Positions 12,556-60,052 of a DNA stretch of 64,000 bases are shown in pieces. Position 1 is the first letter of the stretch. Every line of letters starts with the position of its first letter. The notes beneath the pieces were generated by a model. It had not been told where the DNA came from, ran no database searches, and saw only the letters and a program-made list of their open reading frames with translations. This stretch comes from Escherichia phage RB43, in the sequence record NC_007023.1, one strand, 5' to 3'. The position numbers were made by a program, and so were the translations under genes.

Positions 12556-14550
12556 ATGGCTTTACAATCTCCAGGTATTGAAACCAAAGAAACATCGGTA
12601 CAATCTACCGTTGTTCGAAATTCAACTGGTCGCGCTGCCATTGTTGGTAAATTTTCATGGGGGCCAGCTTATCAGATCCGTCAGATTTCTAATGAAGTCG
12701 AACTGGTAAACTATTTTGGTGCTCCAGACAACCTAACCGCTGACTATTTCATGAGTGCTGTTAACTTCTTGCAGTACGGTAATGATCTCCGTCTGGTTCG
12801 TGTTGTTGATAAAGATGCCGCAAAAAACGCAAGCGCAATTTTTAACCAGATTAAAACAACTATCGCATCACAGGGTTCTAACTATAACGTTGGCGACGTG
12901 ATCAAGGTAAAATATAGCAACACCGTAGTAGAAGAAAACGGTAAAGTAACTCAGGTTGACAGTAACGGTAAGATCCTTGCGGTAACTATCCCCAAGCGAA
13001 AAAAATCGTTGCTCGTGCTAAACAGATCGGTACTTACCCAGATATTTCTACTGGTTGGAACTACTGAAATTGTTTCTCAGTCTTCCGGTGTATCTGCGTC
13101 AATCACGATCGATGGTATCGAAAGCGATTCTGGGATCACTCTGTTGAACCTGGACATTGCAAAAGAAACCATTCAGGGAACTTCGTTCCAGACGCTGACC
13201 CAGAAATATCAGATCCCGTCTGTTGTGGCTCTGTATCCTGGTGAACTGGGTTCTACTGTACAGGTAGAGATCATTTCCAAAGCTGCTTACGACACTGGCG
13301 CTATGATTTCCGGCTATCCTTCTGGGATCTCCGTTAAAAACAGCGGTCGTTCTGTGATGACCTATGGTCCACAAACCGATAATCAGTACGCTTTTGTTGT
13401 GCGTCGTGGTGGTATTGTACAAGAATCTTTCATCGTGTCAACCGATAAAACCGATAAAGATATCTATGGCGTAAATATCTACATGGATGACTTTTTCGCG
13501 AACGGTGGTTCTCAGTACGTATTCGGTACTTCTATGAACTGGCCTAAAGGTTTCTCCGGTATTCTGGAATTTGGCGGCGGTCTGTCTTCAAACGACACCG
13601 TAGGCGCTGATGAACTGATGACGGGTTGGGATATGTTCGCAGACCGCGAAGCCTTACACGTTCCGCTGCTGATTGCAGGTGGCTGTGCTGGTGAAAGCGT
13701 GGAAATCGCTTCTACTGTTCAGAAACATGTTATTTCAATCGGTGATGAACGTCAAGACTGTACGGTTTTCGTATCGCCTCCGCGCTCTCTTCTGGTTAAT
13801 ATTCCGCTGGCAACTGCGGTTGATAACATCGTTGAATGGCGTACTGGTTATAAAATCAGTGGTGGTACTCCGGTAGACAATAACCTGAACGTAAGTTCAA
13901 GCTATGGCTTCCTGGATGGTAACTATAAATATCAGTATGATAAATACAATGACGTGAACCGTTGGGTTCCGCTGGCAGGTGATATCGCTGGCCTGTGTGT
14001 TTACACTGATAGCGTTGCTAACCCGTGGATGTCTCCGGCTGGTTATAACCGTGGTCAGATCCGTAACTGTATTAAACTGGCTATTGAACCGCGCACAGCA
14101 CACCGTGACGCGATGTATCAGGTTCAGATTAACCCGGTAACTGGTTTTGCAGGTGGCTCTGGTTTCGTTCTGTACGGTGATAAAACACTGACTAGCGTTC
14201 CAAGTCCGTTCGATCGCATAAACGTTCGTCGCTTGTTCAACATGATCAAGAAAGACATTGGCGATAATGCGAAATACAAACTGTTCGAAAACAACGACGA
14301 TTTCACCCGTGCTTCGTTCCGTATGGATACTGGTCAGTACATGACGAATATTCGTGCGCTGGGTGGTTGCTATGATTACCGTGTAATCTGCGACACCACG
14401 AACAACACACCAGACGTAATCGATCGTAACGAGTTTGTAGCGACTGTTTACGTGAAACCGCCTCGTTCTATCAACTACATCACTCTGAACTTCGTAGCAA
14501 CGTCTACAGGTGCGGATTTCGATGAATTGGTAGGCCCACAAGCCGTATAA
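12556..14550 (+). CDS. 18: tail sheath protein gp18
   Basis: 664 aa; N-terminal MALQSPGIETKETSVQ... and overall length match T4 gp18. Confidence 0.95.
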   Translation: MALQSPGIETKETSVQSTVVRNSTGRAAIVGKFSWGPAYQIRQISNEVELVNYFGAPDNLTADYFMSAVNFLQYGNDLRLVRVVDKDAAKNASAIFNQIKTTIASQGSNYNVGDVIKVKYSNTVVEENGKVTQVDSNGKILAVTIPKRKKSLLVLNRSVLTQIFLLVGTTEIVSQSSGVSASITIDGIESDSGITLLNLDIAKETIQGTSFQTLTQKYQIPSVVALYPGELGSTVQVEIISKAAYDTGAMISGYPSGISVKNSGRSVMTYGPQTDNQYAFVVRRGGIVQESFIVSTDKTDKDIYGVNIYMDDFFANGGSQYVFGTSMNWPKGFSGILEFGGGLSSNDTVGADELMTGWDMFADREALHVPLLIAGGCAGESVEIASTVQKHVISIGDERQDCTVFVSPPRSLLVNIPLATAVDNIVEWRTGYKISGGTPVDNNLNVSSSYGFLDGNYKYQYDKYNDVNRWVPLAGDIAGLCVYTDSVANPWMSPAGYNRGQIRNCIKLAIEPRTAHRDAMYQVQINPVTGFAGGSGFVLYGDKTLTSVPSPFDRINVRRLFNMIKKDIGDNAKYKLFENNDDFTRASFRMDTGQYMTNIRALGGCYDYRVICDTTNNTPDVIDRNEFVATVYVKPPRSINYITLNFVATSTGADFDELVGPQAV

Positions 14551-24804: not shown

Positions 24805-24875
24805 TATGATTACCCTATGTACAAAGTATATAGGTATTTATTGCCTAAATATTGAATAAACACTGGAGATAGACA

Positions 24876-25796
24876 ATGAAAATTGATTACGAATTGGTAG
24901 AAGGGTTCCGTGCTCTGCCTACTAAAGAACAGAAAGGCGCACTGGCTGACTACGCTCAAAGCACCTTTGAAGTAAAATTGAACAAACAAAAATCATTCGA
25001 TAACATGCTGGCTGATCTGGAAGCTGCTGTACCAGCGGAAGAAGAAAAACCGGAACTGCTGATTGATTCCCCAGAATCCGCGATCGTTTCGTACACTGGT
25101 AGCGTTGCAATGGATGAACCTGTTGTTAACGCTCCGAACATTCCTGATGTTGTTGTCGATGTGTCGCAGGACTTTATGGATTACGTCAAAGACGTTGCGC
25201 CGGAAGTGGCTGATCAGATTAAATTAGTCCCTGATGTTGTTGTCGATGTGTCGCAGGACTTTATGGATTACGTCAAAGACGTTGCGCCGGAAGTGGCTGA
25301 TCAGATTAAATTAGTCCCTGATGTTGTTGTCGATGTGTCGCAGGACTTTATGGATTACGTCAAAGACGTTGCGCCGGAAGTGGCTGATCAGATTAAATTA
25401 GTCCCTGATGTTGTTGTCGATGTGTCGCAGGACTTTATGGATTACGTCAAAGACGTTGCGCCGGAAGTGGCTGATCAGATTAAATTAGTCCCTGATGTTG
25501 TAGAAGCGTCTGTAACCGCTTCTGACGAGTCCAAAGCTGATATGGCATGGTTGGACGGGTTTAGCCCTACAATCGTTCTGATGGGGCGTAGCGCTCGTTC
25601 TAACGGCTATTATACGTGTCCCTGGTGGATCTACGATTGGATTAAGAAAAATCCAGATTGGTACAAAGATCCTGACCAGTGTCCACACTACAGCGCACGG
25701 GATACCCTGAAATCGCTGGTGTACTACATCAAACGTGATGGTCAAGTTACTGTGCGTGAAACGCGCAACAGCAGTTTCGATACCTTCAAATTTTAG
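24876..25796 (+). CDS. Hoc-like capsid decoration protein with C-terminal capsid-binding domain and internal 4 x 29-aa perfect tandem repeat
   Basis: C-terminal ...YYTCPWWIYDWIKKNPDWYKDPD...RDGQVTVRETRN resembles T4 Hoc capsid-binding domain (AYIWCGWWVMDEI...GKDW...DVQESRNGY) as recalled; location next to uvsW as for T4 hoc; RBS GGAGA. Confidence 0.6.
   Translation: MKIDYELVEGFRALPTKEQKGALADYAQSTFEVKLNKQKSFDNMLADLEAAVPAEEEKPELLIDSPESAIVSYTGSVAMDEPVVNAPNIPDVVVDVSQDFMDYVKDVAPEVADQIKLVPDVVVDVSQDFMDYVKDVAPEVADQIKLVPDVVVDVSQDFMDYVKDVAPEVADQIKLVPDVVVDVSQDFMDYVKDVAPEVADQIKLVPDVVEASVTASDESKADMAWLDGFSPTIVLMGRSARSNGYYTCPWWIYDWIKKNPDWYKDPDQCPHYSARDTLKSLVYYIKRDGQVTVRETRNSSFDTFKF
25143..25501 (+). repeat. 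perfect 87-bp direct tandem repeat, 4 full copies plus 11-bp partial, in-frame inside the Hoc-like gene
   Basis: Copies start at 25143, 25230, 25317, 25404; each encodes PDVVVDVSQDFMDYVKDVAPEVADQIKLV. Confidence 0.95.
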
Positions 25797-25896
25797 CACT
25801 TTTTGCTAAAAATCTGGTTGACTCGTACCCCGCTTTAAAGTATATTTGTACTCGAAGGCGGGGGAAAGGCTCTCGCAGTGAAAGAAGGAAAGCAAA

Positions 25897-26214
25897 ATGA
25901 AAAACGAAATGATGAAAAATGCTTATTATCCGGTTTTGTTTGTTTGGGGCGGGGAAAAAGTTAAAACTATCGTTAATTCACAAGCTCCGTATTACACTGT
26001 AGGTGAAGCACTTCGTCACGCCGCCGAAGCTGATTATCCGGTATCATTTGAACCTGGTTATGCTCGTTGGAACGGTTCTAAGTGGGTTGCTGATAGCTGG
26101 GACAACTACGAAGAATCAAGAATGGAACATGATCCTGATTATGTTTCTCGCCAGATGGAAGCGCACATGATTGCAGACCGTCGCCTCGATAATGAAGCTC
26201 GCGGATTCTGGTAA
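25897..26214 (+). CDS. hypothetical protein
   Basis: 105 aa ORF with RBS GAAGGAAAG; followed by hairpin terminator. Confidence 0.5.
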   Translation: MKNEMMKNAYYPVLFVWGGEKVKTIVNSQAPYYTVGEALRHAAEADYPVSFEPGYARWNGSKWVADSWDNYEESRMEHDPDYVSRQMEAHMIADRRLDNEARGFW

Positions 26215-26220
26215 AATTTA

Positions 26221-26243
26221 AGGGGGCGAAAGCCTCCTTTTTT
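26221..26243 (+). terminator. rho-independent terminator
   Basis: GGGGGCGAAAGCCTCC hairpin followed by TTTTTT. Confidence 0.5.
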
Positions 26244-26287: not shown

Positions 26288-26824
26288 TTGTCAGATGGTA
26301 AAGAAATCGAGAACGTTATATTCCTCGATATTGACGGCGTGTTAAATAATATGCGCTCTATGAAATTCGGTGAACATATGGACATCGAATGTGCGCGACA
26401 TCTACGCCGGATCGTCAACCATGCAAATTGTGATATCGTTGTTTCTTCAACGTGGCGCATTGGGAACACGACACACACCCTACGCGAAATCCTGTACCCC
26501 TGGGGCTTGTATCGCGTTATCGGTCGAACCTGTAGCAACATGGTTGGTAATTGTGTGCGTGGTGATGAAATAAAGGCGTGGATCGATACGTTCGGATGTA
26601 AGAACTACATGATCCTTGATGATGATTGTGATATGTTGCCAGAACAAAAAGATCACTTCGTCAGAACAGATCCTGAAATCGGGCTTACCGAAGAACAATC
26701 AACCTTTGCGATCCGCAATATATTTGGAGTAACAACCCCGTTTTGTCCTGAATGCAACGGCTATGGGCGCGTGAACCAATACGATAAATGCGGTAGCTGT
26801 AACGGTAAAAAATTGCGTCTATAA
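26288..26824 (+). CDS. HAD-superfamily phosphatase with C-terminal Cys-rich zinc-ribbon (apparent TTG start)
   Basis: N-terminal FLDIDGVLN (HAD motif I), SSTWR, ILDDD motifs; C-terminal CPECNGYG...CGSCNGKK; no in-frame ATG upstream of motif I. Confidence 0.6.
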   Translation: MSDGKEIENVIFLDIDGVLNNMRSMKFGEHMDIECARHLRRIVNHANCDIVVSSTWRIGNTTHTLREILYPWGLYRVIGRTCSNMVGNCVRGDEIKAWIDTFGCKNYMILDDDCDMLPEQKDHFVRTDPEIGLTEEQSTFAIRNIFGVTTPFCPECNGYGRVNQYDKCGSCNGKKLRL

Positions 26825-26851: not shown

Positions 26852-27355
26852 ATGGCTACTGAAAAATGGACTACGGTTCACCCTATCCCGTGGCGTAACA
26901 CCAGCTTTACCTATCTTCCGTGGTGGATCTATGATATCATCGTTGCTGCTAATACGGCAGGTGGAGATTGGCGTGATTACGCAGAAGAAAAATATGCGAA
27001 AGAATTCGTCACGCTGAAACAAGCATACATCGACTAGACCGATGTTGATTTCATCGAATCTCGCAACGGCTACCTGTACAAACTCAGTGATTTTACTCCG
27101 GCTGATCCGGTTGTTACTATCACCCCGAAAACTGCCCCTGCTGATTTTAAAGTAGGCGATCCTGACCTTGCTGCAACCGATCTGTTTACTATCGATCCGA
27201 GCGGTACGGCTATGACTCTGACTGTGGATTCCTCTGGTCATGCGTCGATCGTTGGCGGTAAACTCCATGCTATAAGCGCTGGTGATGTTGTTGTAACGGC
27301 GACCTCCGGTTCTGTTACTGCAAACCTGACTGTAAATGTTAAAGTTGCTCCATAA
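26852..27355 (+). CDS. second Hoc-like gene: N-terminal capsid-binding domain interrupted by in-frame TAG (27035-27037), then Big_2-type Ig-like domain
   Basis: ATG 26852 to TAG gives 61 aa (VHPIPWRNTSFTYLPWWIYDII...GGDW...); same frame stays open to TAA 27353-27355 encoding ...FIESRNGYLYKL... plus Big_2-like domain; homology to Hoc spans the TAG. Confidence 0.5.
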
Positions 27356-35042: not shown

Positions 35043-36473
35043 ATGCAAACTTTTAATGAACTGAATAGCATCATCACCTCAACCGATTCCTACAAAGTGT
35101 CTCACTGGATGCAGTATCCGCAAGGCACTGATGCAGCGATGTTCTATATCGAATCTCGCGGTGGTAAATTTGATGAAGTAGTAACCGCTGGCGTTAACTA
35201 CGTTGCGCGGGTTCTCGCTGAACCAATTACCATGAAGCAGGTTGAGTTAGCGCGGGTACTTTACCGTAAACACTTCGGAAAAGAGATCTTTAACTACGAA
35301 GGGTGGAAAAAGATTGCTGAACTGGGTTACACCCCTGTAATTTTCCGTGCGATCCCAGAAGGTACGGTGTTCCGGGAAAAATGCCGTGCGACTGTGTACG
35401 CCGAAAACGAATTCTCGTGGCTGGCTGGGTGGCTGGAGACAATGACGATTCGCGGTATTTGGTATCCGTCATCTGTAGCAACGCTATCGCGTGAGTGTAA
35501 AAAGGTTCTGGCACACTACCTGGATATGACTTCTGACCTTACTGGCGAAGCATATAACATCACACTGGGTACACGTCTGCATGATTTTGGGGCGCGGGGC
35601 GCGACCTCTGCTGAATCTGCTGGCATTGGTGGGCTGGCACACCTTTATAACTTCATCGGCACTGATACCGTAGAAGGGATGATTATGGCAATCAGCCTCT
35701 TTGCGGATTATCAAACACTGTTTGATGAAGTTGAAAACGTAGAAGTAGCTGGGGTTTCCATCCCTGCTCGTGAGCATTCAACTACGATTTCCTACGGTAA
35801 AGAAAACGAAGACGAAGCATATAAAAACAGCATTGAAATGTTCGGTGATGGGTTCTACGCTTGCGTATACGATTCATGGGACTACAAAGCCGCTGTTGAC
35901 CGGATCGATAGTTATAAAGAGAAAATCATTGCATCTGGCGGTGTGTTGGTAGTGCGTCCAGACTCAGGGGATATGATAGACAACATCATGTACACCTTGC
36001 GCAAACTGGGGCAAATCTTCGGATATACTGTCAACTCCAAAGGGTACAAAGTTCTTCATAACTCTGTTCGTATCATCCAGGGTGACGAGATCCACGGGCC
36101 TGAAACAATCAACCGTGTATTAAGCTGGATGGAAGCGAACAAATGGTCGAGCGAAAACATTGCGTTCGGTATGGGTGGCGGTTTGCTGCAAGAAGTTACC
36201 CGCGATACCCAGAAATATGCTGAAAAACTTTGCGCTATCCGTATCAACGGTGTGTGGAAAGGCGTTTACAAATGCCCGAAAGGTTCGGAATGGAAAAAGA
36301 GCAAGAAAGGTTTATTGATGACCATCACTAACGGGATGGAATTCAAGACAATCGATTCTCTCGAAGAATCTATTCCTGCTGGGTGGTTTGATGCGATGGT
36401 AACTTATTATGACAATGGTTATCTGAACAAAACTGACACTTTAGGGGAAATTCGTGAGCGTAGCCGGATTTAA
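35043..36473 (+). CDS. nadV: nicotinamide phosphoribosyltransferase (NadV/NAMPT family)
   Basis: 476 aa; N-terminal ...TDSYKVSHW...YPQGT..., GTRLHDFGARGATS, IRPDSGD, RIIQGDEI, FGMGGGLLQ motifs typical of NAMPT/NAPRTase family. Confidence 0.8.
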   Translation: MQTFNELNSIITSTDSYKVSHWMQYPQGTDAAMFYIESRGGKFDEVVTAGVNYVARVLAEPITMKQVELARVLYRKHFGKEIFNYEGWKKIAELGYTPVIFRAIPEGTVFREKCRATVYAENEFSWLAGWLETMTIRGIWYPSSVATLSRECKKVLAHYLDMTSDLTGEAYNITLGTRLHDFGARGATSAESAGIGGLAHLYNFIGTDTVEGMIMAISLFADYQTLFDEVENVEVAGVSIPAREHSTTISYGKENEDEAYKNSIEMFGDGFYACVYDSWDYKAAVDRIDSYKEKIIASGGVLVVRPDSGDMIDNIMYTLRKLGQIFGYTVNSKGYKVLHNSVRIIQGDEIHGPETINRVLSWMEANKWSSENIAFGMGGGLLQEVTRDTQKYAEKLCAIRINGVWKGVYKCPKGSEWKKSKKGLLMTITNGMEFKTIDSLEESIPAGWFDAMVTYYDNGYLNKTDTLGEIRERSRI

Positions 36474-54773: not shown

Positions 54774-57002
54774 TTGGAGTGCTTCGAATCTCCGTTATTG
54801 CCGTCAGGTGGACAAATAACGTATAAAGGCTGGCGTATCTATACCGAAAATGATCGCCCGACAGCGGAAGATATAGGGGCGTTGTCTCTTGCTAATGGTG
54901 GTACTGTTAACAATGATACGACATTCACGAAAAATATAACCGTAGGCGTTAATGCTGTTGCGGGTGCATTGTTTTCTAGATCGTACATCGATATTACTCG
55001 CGCCGGAAGTGAACCAAACATTGTTTTTCGTCGTTCTGATGTTACTACTACGCCGACGACAGAACAAGCCCTTTTAATACTTAATGCTATGAATGGGGCT
55101 AACGTTACTGCGGGTACGTTTAATATTCATGCGCGTACTGATGGCGGGAACAAAGTTTATATTACTGCGTATAAATCGGGATCACAAAATACATCATTAA
55201 CGCTAGATTCGCAACTTCAACAGGTAACGGTAGAACAAGGCACTTTCCGTGTCACTGGAAATACTGTTCTTGCTGGTGCAACTGCAACCACGTTAAACGT
55301 TACTGGGGCGTTGACTGCACAAACGGTTACTCCGGCGAACTGGCAAAATCACGATGTTCGTTATATGACGGGTATTCCGACCAACATGCAGGGAAATAGC
55401 CTAAGCGCTGCTGTTGTTACCGAAAAGAATGATGTTCTTTCCGTAAACGGTAACTTGGTTGATGGTCCTTATGGCGATAATACCTACGTGGGCCAGGTGG
55501 TAAACTATCGCCGCACGTCGAATGCGAGCAACTCGATCACTCAGTTCTTCCTTGATGGTACTGCTTTCCATATCCGTACAGGTTCTGGATCTCCTGGTGC
55601 TTGGTCTTGGACGGGTGGAGGTGCTAACGGTTGGCGTAAAGTGTATGATGAAAGTCACAAACCTACTCCGGCAGAAATCGGTGCATTGAAAAATACTACC
55701 GATACATTGAACGGTGAATTGGGTGTTATCGGTGATGTTTCTTTAAAATCACCTACAGGTCGTCATATTAAATTCGTGTATACGAAAAATGATGGTACTC
55801 AGATTGTTGATGGGTTTATCTACAAAGACGGACCTGATGCTGGTAATCGTCGTTCCGGTATTCGCATTAACTGTTATACGCCGAATAAAGAAACTGGTAA
55901 TGGGGAGTTTTCCGGTGAATTCATTTTCAACGAAAATGGTAGCTTTATTCTTCCTCCTGGCGGCACAATATATCAGGAAGGTATAACACCAGGTCTTTAC
56001 GCAAACGTTATATTAAGTGCCGCTGCTGCTGGTACTACATCATACCTTCGTAAATTCCGAGGTGGTGGCCCTGATACAATATGGCATGAGGCAGTTCGAT
56101 CTAACGTATACGCTTTGGGAACTGGCGCGACATATTCAAATGAAGTAATGACTCTCGATGACACTGGTAATCTGTCTATCAAAGGAACCCCGTCAACATC
56201 AACGAACGTTTTCCTGGATAGTGACGCAAAATCTGTTATTTGGTTTAGACATTCCGGCGGTGCGGAAAAAGGCGTTGTGTGGGCAGAGAGTGATGGTAAA
56301 TTAAAATTACGCGCAAATGCTGGCGGTTCTGCTACTTATGAGTTTTATGCTGGTATGATACACTCACAATACCCCGTATCAGGTACAGATCGCGGTATTA
56401 TTCGCGGTACTCCTGATGGGGGTGGTTGGGATCAATGGCGTGAACGTTCTGCTGCTGTATCTGTTGATGTTCCCGGTGTCAATAATAGCGCATACAGTAT
56501 CTGGAAAGCAACTTCATGGAATAACACCTATGTTGCTGCAATTGGATGTTCATATGCCCGAACTTTACACCAGGCGCCGGCCCGTGTTCGTCTGGTTCTG
56601 CAAAGTTCTGTTGCTTTCTACTTCGATGGTGATGGTAGCTTTAGTACAAGTACAGGGAACATCACGGCAGGTAATAGTGGTTACTTTAACGATGTGTATA
56701 TTCGTTCTGATGAAAAATTGAAAAGCAATTTCAATAAGATTGAAAACGCATTGGATAAGGTTGAACTGTTGAATGGTTTGACTTATGATAAAGCAAGCTA
56801 TATCGGTGGCGAAACTGTTAAGCGCGAAGCTGGTTTGATCGCACAGGAACTGCAAAAGGTATTACCGGAAGCCGTATCTGTTGGTAAGGATACCAAAGAA
56901 AACGAAGTGCTTGTTATTTCGCCAACTGCAACTATTGCATTACTGGTCGAAGCAATCAAAGAACTGCGTGAAGAAGTAAGGGAACTCAAATCCCGACAAT
57001 AA
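54774..57002 (+). CDS. long tail fibre distal subunit paralogue A (gp36/gp37-like) with C-terminal intramolecular chaperone domain; conserved N-terminus is in another frame from ATG 54730
   Basis: ORF track start is TTG 54774; upstream ATG 54730 frame encodes MADLKLGTTLGGAAIWSASN (gp36-type N-terminus) then stops 54819; body has GG.PDTIWHEAVR and C-terminal ...DVYIRSDEKLKSNF...GREAGLIAQELQKVLPEAV (S74-type chaperone). Confidence 0.7.
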   Translation: MECFESPLLPSGGQITYKGWRIYTENDRPTAEDIGALSLANGGTVNNDTTFTKNITVGVNAVAGALFSRSYIDITRAGSEPNIVFRRSDVTTTPTTEQALLILNAMNGANVTAGTFNIHARTDGGNKVYITAYKSGSQNTSLTLDSQLQQVTVEQGTFRVTGNTVLAGATATTLNVTGALTAQTVTPANWQNHDVRYMTGIPTNMQGNSLSAAVVTEKNDVLSVNGNLVDGPYGDNTYVGQVVNYRRTSNASNSITQFFLDGTAFHIRTGSGSPGAWSWTGGGANGWRKVYDESHKPTPAEIGALKNTTDTLNGELGVIGDVSLKSPTGRHIKFVYTKNDGTQIVDGFIYKDGPDAGNRRSGIRINCYTPNKETGNGEFSGEFIFNENGSFILPPGGTIYQEGITPGLYANVILSAAAAGTTSYLRKFRGGGPDTIWHEAVRSNVYALGTGATYSNEVMTLDDTGNLSIKGTPSTSTNVFLDSDAKSVIWFRHSGGAEKGVVWAESDGKLKLRANAGGSATYEFYAGMIHSQYPVSGTDRGIIRGTPDGGGWDQWRERSAAVSVDVPGVNNSAYSIWKATSWNNTYVAAIGCSYARTLHQAPARVRLVLQSSVAFYFDGDGSFSTSTGNITAGNSGYFNDVYIRSDEKLKSNFNKIENALDKVELLNGLTYDKASYIGGETVKREAGLIAQELQKVLPEAVSVGKDTKENEVLVISPTATIALLVEAIKELREEVRELKSRQ

Positions 57003-59513: not shown

Positions 59514-59527
59514 AAAGAGGTAAAATT

Positions 59528-60052
59528 ATGGCAATTGTTGGAGTACCCGGATGGATCGGGTCGTCTGCGGTAGCAGAAACAGGACAGCGTTGGATGTCTG
59601 CGGCGGGTAGCGCTGTTCGAATTGGTGCGCCTTTCTGGATGTCCCAAATGGCAAACCAATCAGTATATAATATTTCAATACCAATATTCGAACGATATTA
59701 TAAAGGTATTCGTTATCGTGGTTGTTGGAATACTGGATGGAATCTCCCTTTATCTAAACCTGGTTGGAACGCTACTCCTGGTGGTAGTTTTAACGGGCTG
59801 GCTTACGGGACTTGTGTTGCAGTGCAAAACTATCTCGATGGTGAATATAGCGTATTAACTATTCAAAGTGGTCCTGCTGCAAACTTTCGACTCACTACTG
59901 ATGACGGTGCGGTGTTTAACTTTATTGATACCGGACGATATGACGCAGGATATCGAAACTACAAAATCGATCCTAGTCAACATGTGGCATGGTTCGACTA
60001 CCTTAATGCTCGTATAGGACAAACAAGACAAGGACTAGTTGCTATAAGATAA
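59528..60052 (+). CDS. 38: gp38-like tail fibre adhesin/assembly protein
   Basis: 174 aa; N-terminus MAIVGVPGWIGSSAVAETGQRWMSAAGSAVRIG matches T4 gp38 N-terminus; no glycine-rich segments. Confidence 0.8.
   Translation: MAIVGVPGWIGSSAVAETGQRWMSAAGSAVRIGAPFWMSQMANQSVYNISIPIFERYYKGIRYRGCWNTGWNLPLSKPGWNATPGGSFNGLAYGTCVAVQNYLDGEYSVLTIQSGPAANFRLTTDDGAVFNFIDTGRYDAGYRNYKIDPSQHVAWFDYLNARIGQTRQGLVAIR

What the first reader, a model, noticed from the sequence alone, without database searches (positions are those of the whole stretch)
24876..25796. Hoc-like protein in which the display region is four perfect 87-bp (29-aa) tandem repeats
Four identical 87-bp copies start at 25143, 25230, 25317 and 25404, with an 11-bp partial fifth copy; they are in-frame and encode an acidic 29-aa unit (PDVVVDVSQDFMDYVKDVAPEVADQIKLV). 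The C-terminus (CPWWIYDWIKKNPDWYKDPD...RDGQVTVRETRN) resembles the Hoc capsid-binding domain and shares the PWWIYD motif with the neighbouring Hoc-like gene. Perfect DNA identity between copies implies very recent expansion or ongoing concerted evolution, so copy number is probably variable between isolates. Together with the second Hoc-like gene this gives two paralogues that may compete for the same capsid sites with different displayed modules.
Basis: partly seen in the sequence, partly recalled or inferred. Interest (0 to 1): 0.65.

Follow-up and report, generated by a model that had tools for sequence, protein, structure and literature searches.

The report
Amplified linker repeat in phage Inh
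The four perfect 87-bp repeats are real in this sequence, but the gene is the phage RB43 copy of T4's little-studied head protein Inh, not Hoc; the repeat is a one-record expansion of a floppy acidic linker, and the more useful result is that Inh's tail end has the same fold as Hoc's capsid-docking domain.

Summary
Observation confirmed: 4.1 perfect in-frame 87-bp copies at 25143-25501 inside a 306-aa ORF. Interpretation partly right.

The window is the RB43 reference genome. The ORF is the orthologue of T4 Inh ("minor head protein, inhibitor of gp21 protease"; Phage_Inh_N + Phage_Inh_C), not a Hoc, and it has no Ig-like domain.

The repeat lies in a hypervariable, acidic, low-confidence linker, not in a folded display module. 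RB43-GVA, RB16, GuL6 and every other relative examined have one copy flanked by an 11-bp direct repeat that marks the amplification boundaries. No other multi-copy allele turned up among the 120 listed protein clusters, IMG/VR or JGI metagenomes.

Most likely cause: slippage or unequal recombination in one laboratory lineage, probably near-neutral. Caveat: this record carries 34 derived single-base differences in 64 kb, many of which break ORFs, so its quality is poor. That also makes the hoc nonsense codon at 27035-27037 unreliable.

Modest interest.

The parts
24865..24868 (+). Shine-Dalgarno-like GGAG, 7 nt upstream of the inh ATG
   Evidence: Read directly from the sequence.
24876..25796 (+). 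inh gene (306 aa including the expansion; 219 aa in relatives)
   Evidence: ORF list. phrog_1051 'minor head protein inhibitor of protease', E 1.4e-74. 100% identical to the protein NCBI names Inh of phage RB43. The single-copy RB43-GVA form is 36% identical to T4 Inh, E 1e-38.
24876..25031 (+). Conserved helical N-terminal domain (aa 1-52; corresponds to Pfam Phage_Inh_N)
   Evidence: Alignment A3 has many invariant columns from M1 to L48. AlphaFold gives three helices with pLDDT about 82-87. PF26097 is assigned to the 219-aa orthologue.
25032..25535 (+). Hypervariable acidic linker (aa 53-220): 168 aa and net charge -30 here, against 38-95 aa and -9 to -20 in 31 relatives
   Evidence: Alignment A3 shows indels and segment replacements in this region. 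AlphaFold pLDDT is below 50 with only short helices. Lengths and charges were computed.
25143..25501 (+). Tandem array: four exact 87-bp units (25143-25229, 25230-25316, 25317-25403, 25404-25490) plus the 11-bp partial unit CCTGATGTTGT (25491-25501)
   Evidence: TRF gives 4.1 copies at 100% identity. It appears as a 261-bp insertion relative to RB43-GVA, RB16 and GuL6. The single-copy allele has the 11-nt direct repeat spaced exactly 87 nt apart.
25536..25793 (+). Conserved C-terminal domain (aa 221-306; corresponds to Pfam Phage_Inh_C), homologous to the Hoc capsid-binding domain
25620..25637 (+). PWWIYD (aa 249-254), equivalent to T4 Hoc Trp309, Trp310 and Asp313
   Evidence: Alignments. The role of these Hoc residues in gp23 contact is described in PMC10385173. 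W251 and D254 are invariant in A3.
25758..25769 (+). ETRN (aa 295-298), equivalent to the T4 Hoc loop Glu355-Ser-Arg-Asn358 that sits at the capsomer centre
   Evidence: Alignments. E295, R297 and N298 are invariant in A3. The loop's function in Hoc is described in PMC10385173.
26852..27355 (+). Neighbouring hoc gene (167 aa in relatives), cut to 61 aa here by TAG at 27035-27037 (TAT in relatives), with a GAC->GTC change at 27009
   Evidence: Alignment A2. The RB43 reference annotates a 61-aa Hoc (P0122). The intact RB43-GVA Hoc aa 8-76 matches T4 Hoc 293-362, E 1e-9.

Best explanation
This is the inh gene of the phage RB43 reference genome. Inh has three parts: a small conserved helical N-domain, a long acidic linker that is probably disordered and poorly conserved, and a conserved C-domain with the same fold and key contact residues as the Hoc capsid-binding domain.

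In the ancestral state, seen in every relative examined, the linker holds one 87-bp segment bounded by an 11-bp direct repeat (CCTGATGTTGT). In the lineage sequenced here that segment was amplified to four copies. The most likely route is one illegitimate event between the 11-bp repeats (replication slippage or unequal exchange, 1 to 2 copies), followed by ordinary unequal homologous recombination between the now 87-bp repeats (2 to 4 copies). T4-type phages recombine at very high frequency.

The result is 87 extra residues and 15 extra negative charges in a linker that tolerates length changes throughout the family. The change is therefore probably near-neutral and fixed by a laboratory bottleneck.

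Shown: gene identity, domain layout, position of the repeat, single-copy state in relatives, the 11-bp boundary repeat, and Inh_C/Hoc-CBD homology. Inferred: the mechanism of amplification, its neutrality, and that the C-domain actually docks on gp23 hexamers.
For: - Gene identity.
- Source: the window's Inh protein is 100% identical to RB43's, on a 180,500-bp contig.
- Single copy elsewhere: the closest relatives; all 40 listed phage records span about 2335-2340 bp against 2601 bp of query.
- Homolog lengths: the other 119 listed protein clusters are 176-234 aa; Inh-like representative clusters are 163-279 aa.
- The junction-specific pattern is found only in RB43's own IMG/VR contig and in no JGI metagenome contig.
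- The 11-nt direct repeat is spaced 87 nt apart in the single-copy allele.
- The linker is hypervariable, acidic and low-pLDDT.
- Five distant Inh homologs independently carry short tandem duplications in the same linker.
- RB43-GVA is a laboratory derivative of the same isolate, propagated separately for about 20 years (PMC3157838).
- C-domain homology with the Hoc capsid-binding domain.
Against: - No independent read-level evidence exists for four copies. Only one record carries them.
- That record has poor base-level quality. Of 42 small differences from RB43-GVA in 64 kb, RB16 agrees with GVA at 34, and many are 1-bp indels that break ORFs intact in GVA.
- Short-read assemblies of relatives could have collapsed a perfect array, so 'single copy everywhere' may be overstated.
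- The direction of change within RB43 (expansion here, or contraction or collapse in GVA) is inferred only from outgroups.
- A full-length Inh profile did not retrieve Hoc from PDB sequences.
- Two residues conserved in Hoc, Tyr293 and His295, are not conserved in Inh.
Confidence: 0.72

Rival explanations
1. The four-copy array is an artefact of the 2005-era RB43 reference assembly, or of cloning or PCR during its sequencing. The phage really has one copy, like RB43-GVA.
For: The record carries 34 derived single-base differences in 64 kb, about 20 of them 1-bp indels, and several break conserved ORFs. The array is found in no other record, protein cluster or metagenome contig.
Against: Assemblers collapse perfect tandem repeats rather than invent them. 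A 348-bp array fits inside a single Sanger read. The expansion is exactly in frame and bounded by the pre-existing 11-bp direct repeat, as expected for a biological slippage or recombination event.
Confidence: 0.2
2. One reading: the protein is a Hoc paralogue whose repeats form a surface display region, and it competes with the neighbouring Hoc for capsomer centres. Copy number would then be under selection.
For: The C-domain is homologous to the Hoc capsid-binding domain and keeps the equivalents of R300, W309, W310, D313, E355, R357 and N358. Other phages use this domain to display non-Ig modules (PMC10385173).
Against: It is orthologous to Inh, not Hoc. It has no Ig-like domain. The repeat region is low-confidence and hypervariable, a linker rather than a module. 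The equivalents of Tyr293 and His295 are not conserved. Capsid binding by Inh is untested here, and the only localisation found in the searched papers lists Inh with the head-internal components.
Confidence: 0.15
3. Four copies (or a polymorphic array) is the original RB43 state. RB43-GVA lost copies by recombination, or its assembly collapsed them.
For: Unequal recombination contracts arrays as readily as it expands them, and it regenerates exactly the single-copy sequence. Short-read assemblies collapse perfect repeats. Both stocks descend from one isolate.
Against: All outgroups (RB16, GuL6, IME-CF2 and dozens more) have one copy, so an expansion must have occurred in the RB43 lineage in any case. 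Only its timing would change.
Confidence: 0.15
4. The amplification is adaptive compensation for loss of Hoc in this stock. With hoc truncated, a longer and more acidic Inh occupies the vacant capsomer centres and restores an acidic, anti-aggregation surface.
For: The hoc nonsense codon and the inh expansion occur together only in this record. The two proteins share a docking-domain fold. Hoc's acidity is reported to aid virion dispersion (PMC10385173). The expansion doubles the linker charge from -15 to -30.
Against: The hoc changes are two substitutions 28 bp apart in a record full of clustered, probably erroneous differences, so the truncation may not be real. There is no evidence that Inh is surface-exposed. 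The co-occurrence is a single observation.
Confidence: 0.06

Closest known systems
T4 Inh (gene inh/lip; 'minor head protein, inhibitor of gp21 prohead protease'; PHROG 1051; Pfam Phage_Inh_N PF26097 + Phage_Inh_C PF26098)
   Same: Full-length homology: the single-copy form is 36% identical to T4 Inh, E 1e-38. It has the same three-part layout and the same neighbourhood (uvsW - inh - hoc).
   Different: The linker is about twice the family norm because one 29-aa segment is present four times. At 306 aa the protein is longer than every other Inh-family sequence found (163-279 aa).
T4 Hoc capsid-binding domain (residues 281-376; PDB 8t1x, 5vf3)
   Different: There are no Ig-like domains. The domain is attached to an acidic linker and a helical N-domain instead. 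The equivalents of Tyr293 and His295 are not conserved. Capsid binding by Inh has not been demonstrated.
Non-canonical Hoc-like proteins that use the capsid-binding domain to display other modules (e.g. the phage PG7 511-aa protein with an N-terminal binding domain and a GDSL lipase; PMC10385173)
   Same: The docking domain is fused to a non-Ig partner. The RB43-type Hoc next door also has the binding domain at its N-terminus.
   Different: The partner here is the Inh_N helical domain of unknown activity, and the family is annotated as a protease inhibitor rather than a decoration protein.
Tandem duplications in T4-type phages that arise at short direct repeats and are then expanded or lost by homologous recombination (classical T4 genetics; my own knowledge, not checked here)
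   Same: The amplified segment is bounded by an 11-bp direct repeat, the copies are perfectly identical, and copy number differs between laboratory lineages.
   Different: It is small (87 bp), in frame and inside a coding linker, so it changes protein length rather than gene dosage.

Membership tests
Inh (phage T4-type minor head protein / prohead protease inhibitor) | Significant full-length sequence similarity to T4 Inh and the family profile | tested here: met
   phrog_1051 E 1.4e-74. T4 Inh against the single-copy RB43 form: E 1e-38, 36% identity over the full length.
Inh (phage T4-type minor head protein / prohead protease inhibitor) | Phage_Inh_N + Phage_Inh_C domain pair | tested here: met
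   PF26097 + PF26098 are precomputed for this exact protein (P0001) and all listed homologs and named. Both domains are conserved in A3. The local Pfam copy lacks these models.
Inh (phage T4-type minor head protein / prohead protease inhibitor) | Conserved genomic position beside uvsW and near hoc | tested here: met
   Window order is uvsY, uvsW.1, uvsW, inh, two ORFs, hoc. T4 order is hoc, inh, segE, uvsW.
Inh (phage T4-type minor head protein / prohead protease inhibitor) | Inhibition of gp21 protease; presence in heads | not testable with these tools
   This is a biochemical property. No experimental paper on Inh was found in the searchable library.
Hoc (highly immunogenic outer capsid protein) family | Capsid-binding domain with conserved WW...D and ESRNG-type loop | tested here: met
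Hoc (highly immunogenic outer capsid protein) family | One or more Ig-like domains forming the displayed fibre | tested here: not met
   No Ig/Big Pfam hit. The AlphaFold model has no beta-sandwich; outside the C-domain it shows only helices and coil.
Hoc (highly immunogenic outer capsid protein) family | Best family match is a Hoc profile | tested here: not met
   The Hoc-like phrog_1149 scores only E 1.6e-5 over aa 240-298, against E 1.4e-74 for the Inh family.
Hoc (highly immunogenic outer capsid protein) family | Binds the centre of gp23 hexamers on mature capsids | not testable with these tools
   This needs binding assays or cryo-EM.
Naturally copy-number-variable coding repeat | Different copy numbers among independent natural isolates | tested here: not met
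   The only difference is between two laboratory lineages of RB43. No other multi-copy allele was found among 140 phage records, 120 listed protein clusters, IMG/VR or JGI metagenomes. Short-read assemblies could hide such alleles.

The most novel reading that the evidence does not exclude
Inh is an unrecognised second client of the Hoc docking site at the centre of gp23 hexamers. Its linker length then sets how far the Inh_N domain and its negative charge extend from the capsid. In the RB43 reference stock, where hoc carries a nonsense codon, the four-fold linker amplification would have been selected because a longer, more acidic Inh fills the vacated sites and replaces Hoc's anti-aggregation function.
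Probability: 0.07. Interest if true: 0.65.

Novelty: new variant of a known kind. Interest (0 to 1): 0.33.

Why it matters
The repeat itself matters little. It is a record-specific length variant of a non-essential head protein, and it is a warning that the RB43 reference record needs resequencing.

The by-product is more useful. Inh is absent from the recent T4 head reviews that I checked, and it carries a domain with the fold and key contact residues of the Hoc capsid-docking domain. That gives a concrete, testable hypothesis for where Inh sits and how it might act: docking at capsomer centres, possibly before or in competition with Hoc.

It also adds Inh to the set of proteins that reuse this docking module, which is relevant to T4-based display and vaccine platforms. 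The tolerance of the linker to an 87-residue insertion suggests a permissive insertion site.

Tried and rejected
- NC_007023 (the RB43 RefSeq record) is not in the annotated collections. The source was identified through the exact protein match instead.
- The local Pfam copy gave only sub-threshold noise for the ORF, because it lacks PF26097 and PF26098.
- A word-index search with the 85-aa Hoc binding domain returned only 6 short proteins and gave no diverse Hoc set. The Hoc profile used for hhalign therefore has only 8 sequences of low diversity.
- The exhaustive representative search with the Inh C-domain recovered 91 clusters, nearly all Inh-like. No Hoc reached whole-library significance, and four long repetitive proteins among the hits look spurious.
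- Pairwise BLAST of T4 Inh against T4 Hoc is not significant on its own (E 1.3).
- Eight literature searches found no experimental description of Inh and no statement of the Inh/Hoc domain relationship.
- No tRNA, and so no amber suppressor, is encoded in the window.
- I considered treating the hoc TAG as a genuine knockout. I rejected that as unproven after polarising the differences with RB16.

Full report
**Observation.**
Tandem Repeats Finder reports a single array at 25143-25501 with period 87, 4.1 copies, 100% matches and no indels. The array lies in frame in ORF 24876-25796 (+), 306 aa, preceded by GGAG 7 nt upstream of the ATG.

**What genome and gene this is.**
- The 2.6 kb around the ORF is 99.9% identical to two records of phage RB43, isolate RB43-GVA, and 97-98% identical to RB16, GuL6 and IME-CF2.
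- The 306-aa protein is 100% identical to the protein NCBI calls [quoted passage not shown], on a 180,500-bp contig. The window is therefore the RB43 reference genome.
- The ORF matches PHROG 1051, "minor head protein inhibitor of protease", at E 1.4e-74. The Hoc-like phrog_1149 scores only E 1.6e-5, over aa 240-298.
- T4 Inh and the single-copy RB43 form align end to end (36% identity, E 1e-38).
- Homologs carry Pfam Phage_Inh_N plus Phage_Inh_C.
- Gene order is uvsY, uvsW.1, uvsW, inh, two ORFs, hoc. This corresponds to hoc-inh-segE-uvsW in T4.
- The gene is inh, not a hoc paralogue in the ordinary sense. No Ig-like domain is detected by Pfam or in the structure model.

**Where the repeat sits.**
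An alignment of 32 Inh proteins shows three parts:
- a strongly conserved N-terminal ~52 residues;
- a middle region full of indels and segment replacements;
- a strongly conserved C-terminal ~85 residues.

AlphaFold2 with this alignment models the N-domain as three helices (pLDDT ~85) and the C-domain as beta-beta-alpha-alpha-beta-beta (pLDDT ~90). Residues 55-220 are mostly below pLDDT 50, with only one short helix per repeat unit.

The middle region of the 31 relatives is 38-95 aa long, 18-29% Asp+Glu, with net charge -9 to -20. In the window it is 168 aa with net charge -30. The repeat therefore expands an acidic, probably disordered linker. It is not a folded display module.

**Copy number elsewhere.**
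- RB43-GVA, RB16 and GuL6 each have exactly one copy of the 87-bp unit. The window differs by a clean 261-bp (3 x 87) insertion.
- In the single-copy allele the unit is bounded by the 11-nt direct repeat CCTGATGTTGT, spaced exactly 87 nt apart. These are the boundaries of the amplification.
- All 40 listed phage records span about 2335-2340 bp against 2601 bp of query.
- The other 119 listed protein clusters, from a 5.8-billion-protein collection, are 176-234 aa.
- The Inh-like representative clusters from an exhaustive search are 163-279 aa.
- A junction-specific pattern that exists only with two or more copies was found only in RB43's own IMG/VR contig and in no JGI metagenome contig.
- Five distant Inh homologs carry their own short tandem duplications (9-18 aa units) in the same linker. 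Repeat formation there is recurrent, but no other case is this large.

**How reliable is this record?**
RB43-GVA is a laboratory derivative of the same isolate, kept separately for about 20 years (PMC3157838). Across the 64-kb window the two records differ by the 261-bp expansion, 19 substitutions and 23 single-base indels.
- Many of the indels break ORFs that are intact in GVA.
- With RB16 as outgroup, GVA carries the ancestral state at 34 of 42 sites and the window at 4.
- One of those four is codon 100 of gene 38 (window 59826), which is exactly the published Q100R host-range mutation of GVA. This shows the comparison behaves sensibly.
- The window's excess of derived, often clustered and frame-breaking differences is best explained by sequencing errors in the reference record.

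This does not make a four-copy array a likely artefact. Assemblers collapse repeats rather than expand them, 348 bp fits within one Sanger read, and the event is in frame at a pre-existing direct repeat. It does mean the array lacks independent support. I put about 20% on an artefact.

**The neighbouring hoc.**
Relatives encode a 167-aa Hoc. Its N-terminal residues 8-76 match the T4 Hoc capsid-binding domain, residues 293-362 (E 1e-9), so in RB43-type phages the binding domain is N-terminal. In the window, codon 62 is TAG instead of TAT, and a GAC->GTC change lies 28 bp upstream. The reference annotates a 61-aa Hoc. The stop precedes the ESRNG loop that contacts the capsomer centre in T4 (PMC10385173), so a genuine truncation would be a null. 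Given the record's error pattern, I cannot treat it as real. No suppressor tRNA is encoded in the window.

**The Hoc resemblance.**
- The isolated Inh C-domain has T4 Hoc residues 299-359 as its best PDB sequence hit (E 0.004).
- Foldseek's top PDB hit for the model is the T4 Hoc C-terminal domain, 8t1x_X (prob 0.97).
- A profile-profile comparison of 205 Inh C-domains against 8 Hoc binding domains gives 96.7% probability and E 3.7e-10 over 62 columns.
- PHROG cross-hits run both ways.
- Hoc residues Arg300, Trp309, Trp310, Asp313, Glu355, Arg357 and Asn358 have conserved equivalents in Inh: R238, W250/W251, D254, E295, R297 and N298. All are invariant or nearly so in the alignment, except position 250, which is Trp or Tyr.
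- Tyr293 and His295 do not have conserved equivalents.

I found no paper in the searchable library that states this relationship. The recent T4 head reviews there do not mention Inh at all. Whether Inh actually docks on gp23 hexamers is inference.

**Mechanism and verdict.**
The most likely history is a slippage or unequal-exchange event between the 11-bp repeats (1 to 2 copies), followed by unequal homologous recombination (2 to 4 copies) in one laboratory lineage. It would be tolerated because the linker is unconstrained, and fixed by bottlenecks.

Perfect identity of the copies fits a recent event. So does the minimal divergence from RB43-GVA.

An adaptive link to loss of hoc is conceivable but rests on one co-occurrence in an unreliable record.

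Overall this is a real sequence feature in a known gene of a known phage. It is a new length variant rather than a new kind of element, and it is of modest interest. The by-product, the Inh C-domain/Hoc docking-domain homology, is worth an experiment.

Noticed in passing
window 27009 and 27035-27037 (hoc, 26852-27355): hoc carries TAT->TAG at codon 62 plus a GAC->GTC missense change relative to RB43-GVA, RB16 and GuL6. This truncates Hoc to 61 aa, before its ESRNG capsid-contact loop. The reference annotates this 61-aa product. It may be a sequencing error.
   Followed up: partly
window-wide, e.g. 33275, 34019, 41606, 41630, 42680, 43303, 45548, 60102: There are 23 single-base indels and 19 substitutions relative to RB43-GVA. 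RB16 agrees with GVA at 34 of the 42 sites, and several indels break ORFs that are intact in GVA. The RB43 reference record appears to contain many base-level errors.
   Followed up: yes
window 12993-13059, 35369-35387, 56542-56577: Three clusters each hold three 1-bp indels that together restore the reading frame. By correspondence with RB16 they lie in the gp18, nicotinate phosphoribosyltransferase-like and gp36 genes. They produce short locally frame-shifted stretches, typical of low-quality read segments.
   Followed up: partly
window 59826 (gene 38, 59516-60052): The window has the ancestral A (Gln100) where RB43-GVA has G (Arg100). This matches the published Q100R host-range mutation of RB43-GVA (PMC3157838).
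   Followed up: yes
window 25818-25863: Immediately after the inh stop there is a strong sigma-70-like promoter (TTGACT-17-TATATT, 10/12). An inverted repeat, CCCCGC (25828-25833) / GCGGGG (25858-25863), encloses its -10 box. This resembles the PeSL promoter/stem-loop cassettes described for T4-type phages (PMC2839356). It lies upstream of a 105-aa ORFan-like gene (25897-26214), which is followed by a terminator-like hairpin at 26220-26239.
   Followed up: partly
L001 4492-4995 (RB43-GVA hoc); window 26852-27355: RB43-type Hoc has the architecture inverted relative to T4. The capsid-binding domain is at the N-terminus (aa 8-76) and the remainder (aa ~85-167) follows it. I did not test whether that remainder is Ig-like.
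   Followed up: partly
window 26288-26824 (annotated from about 26255 in relatives): The gene between inh and hoc encodes a HAD_SAK_2 domain ('Swiss Army Knife RNA repair' HAD, E 1e-28) fused to a C-terminal DnaJ-type CXXCXGXG zinc-finger-like segment.
   Followed up: no
proteins P0156, P0136, P0161, P0179, P0147 (distant Inh homologs): Each has its own short tandem duplication in the acidic linker, for example DETVDQPTA x3 in P0156 and an 18-aa unit x2 in P0136. The Inh linker is therefore recurrently prone to repeats.
   Followed up: partly
window 24924-25031 (Inh aa 17-52): The Inh N-domain also matches the C-terminal end of an unrelated PHROG of unknown function (phrog_3259, E 1.9e-12). 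The Inh_N module may occur in other phage proteins.
   Followed up: no
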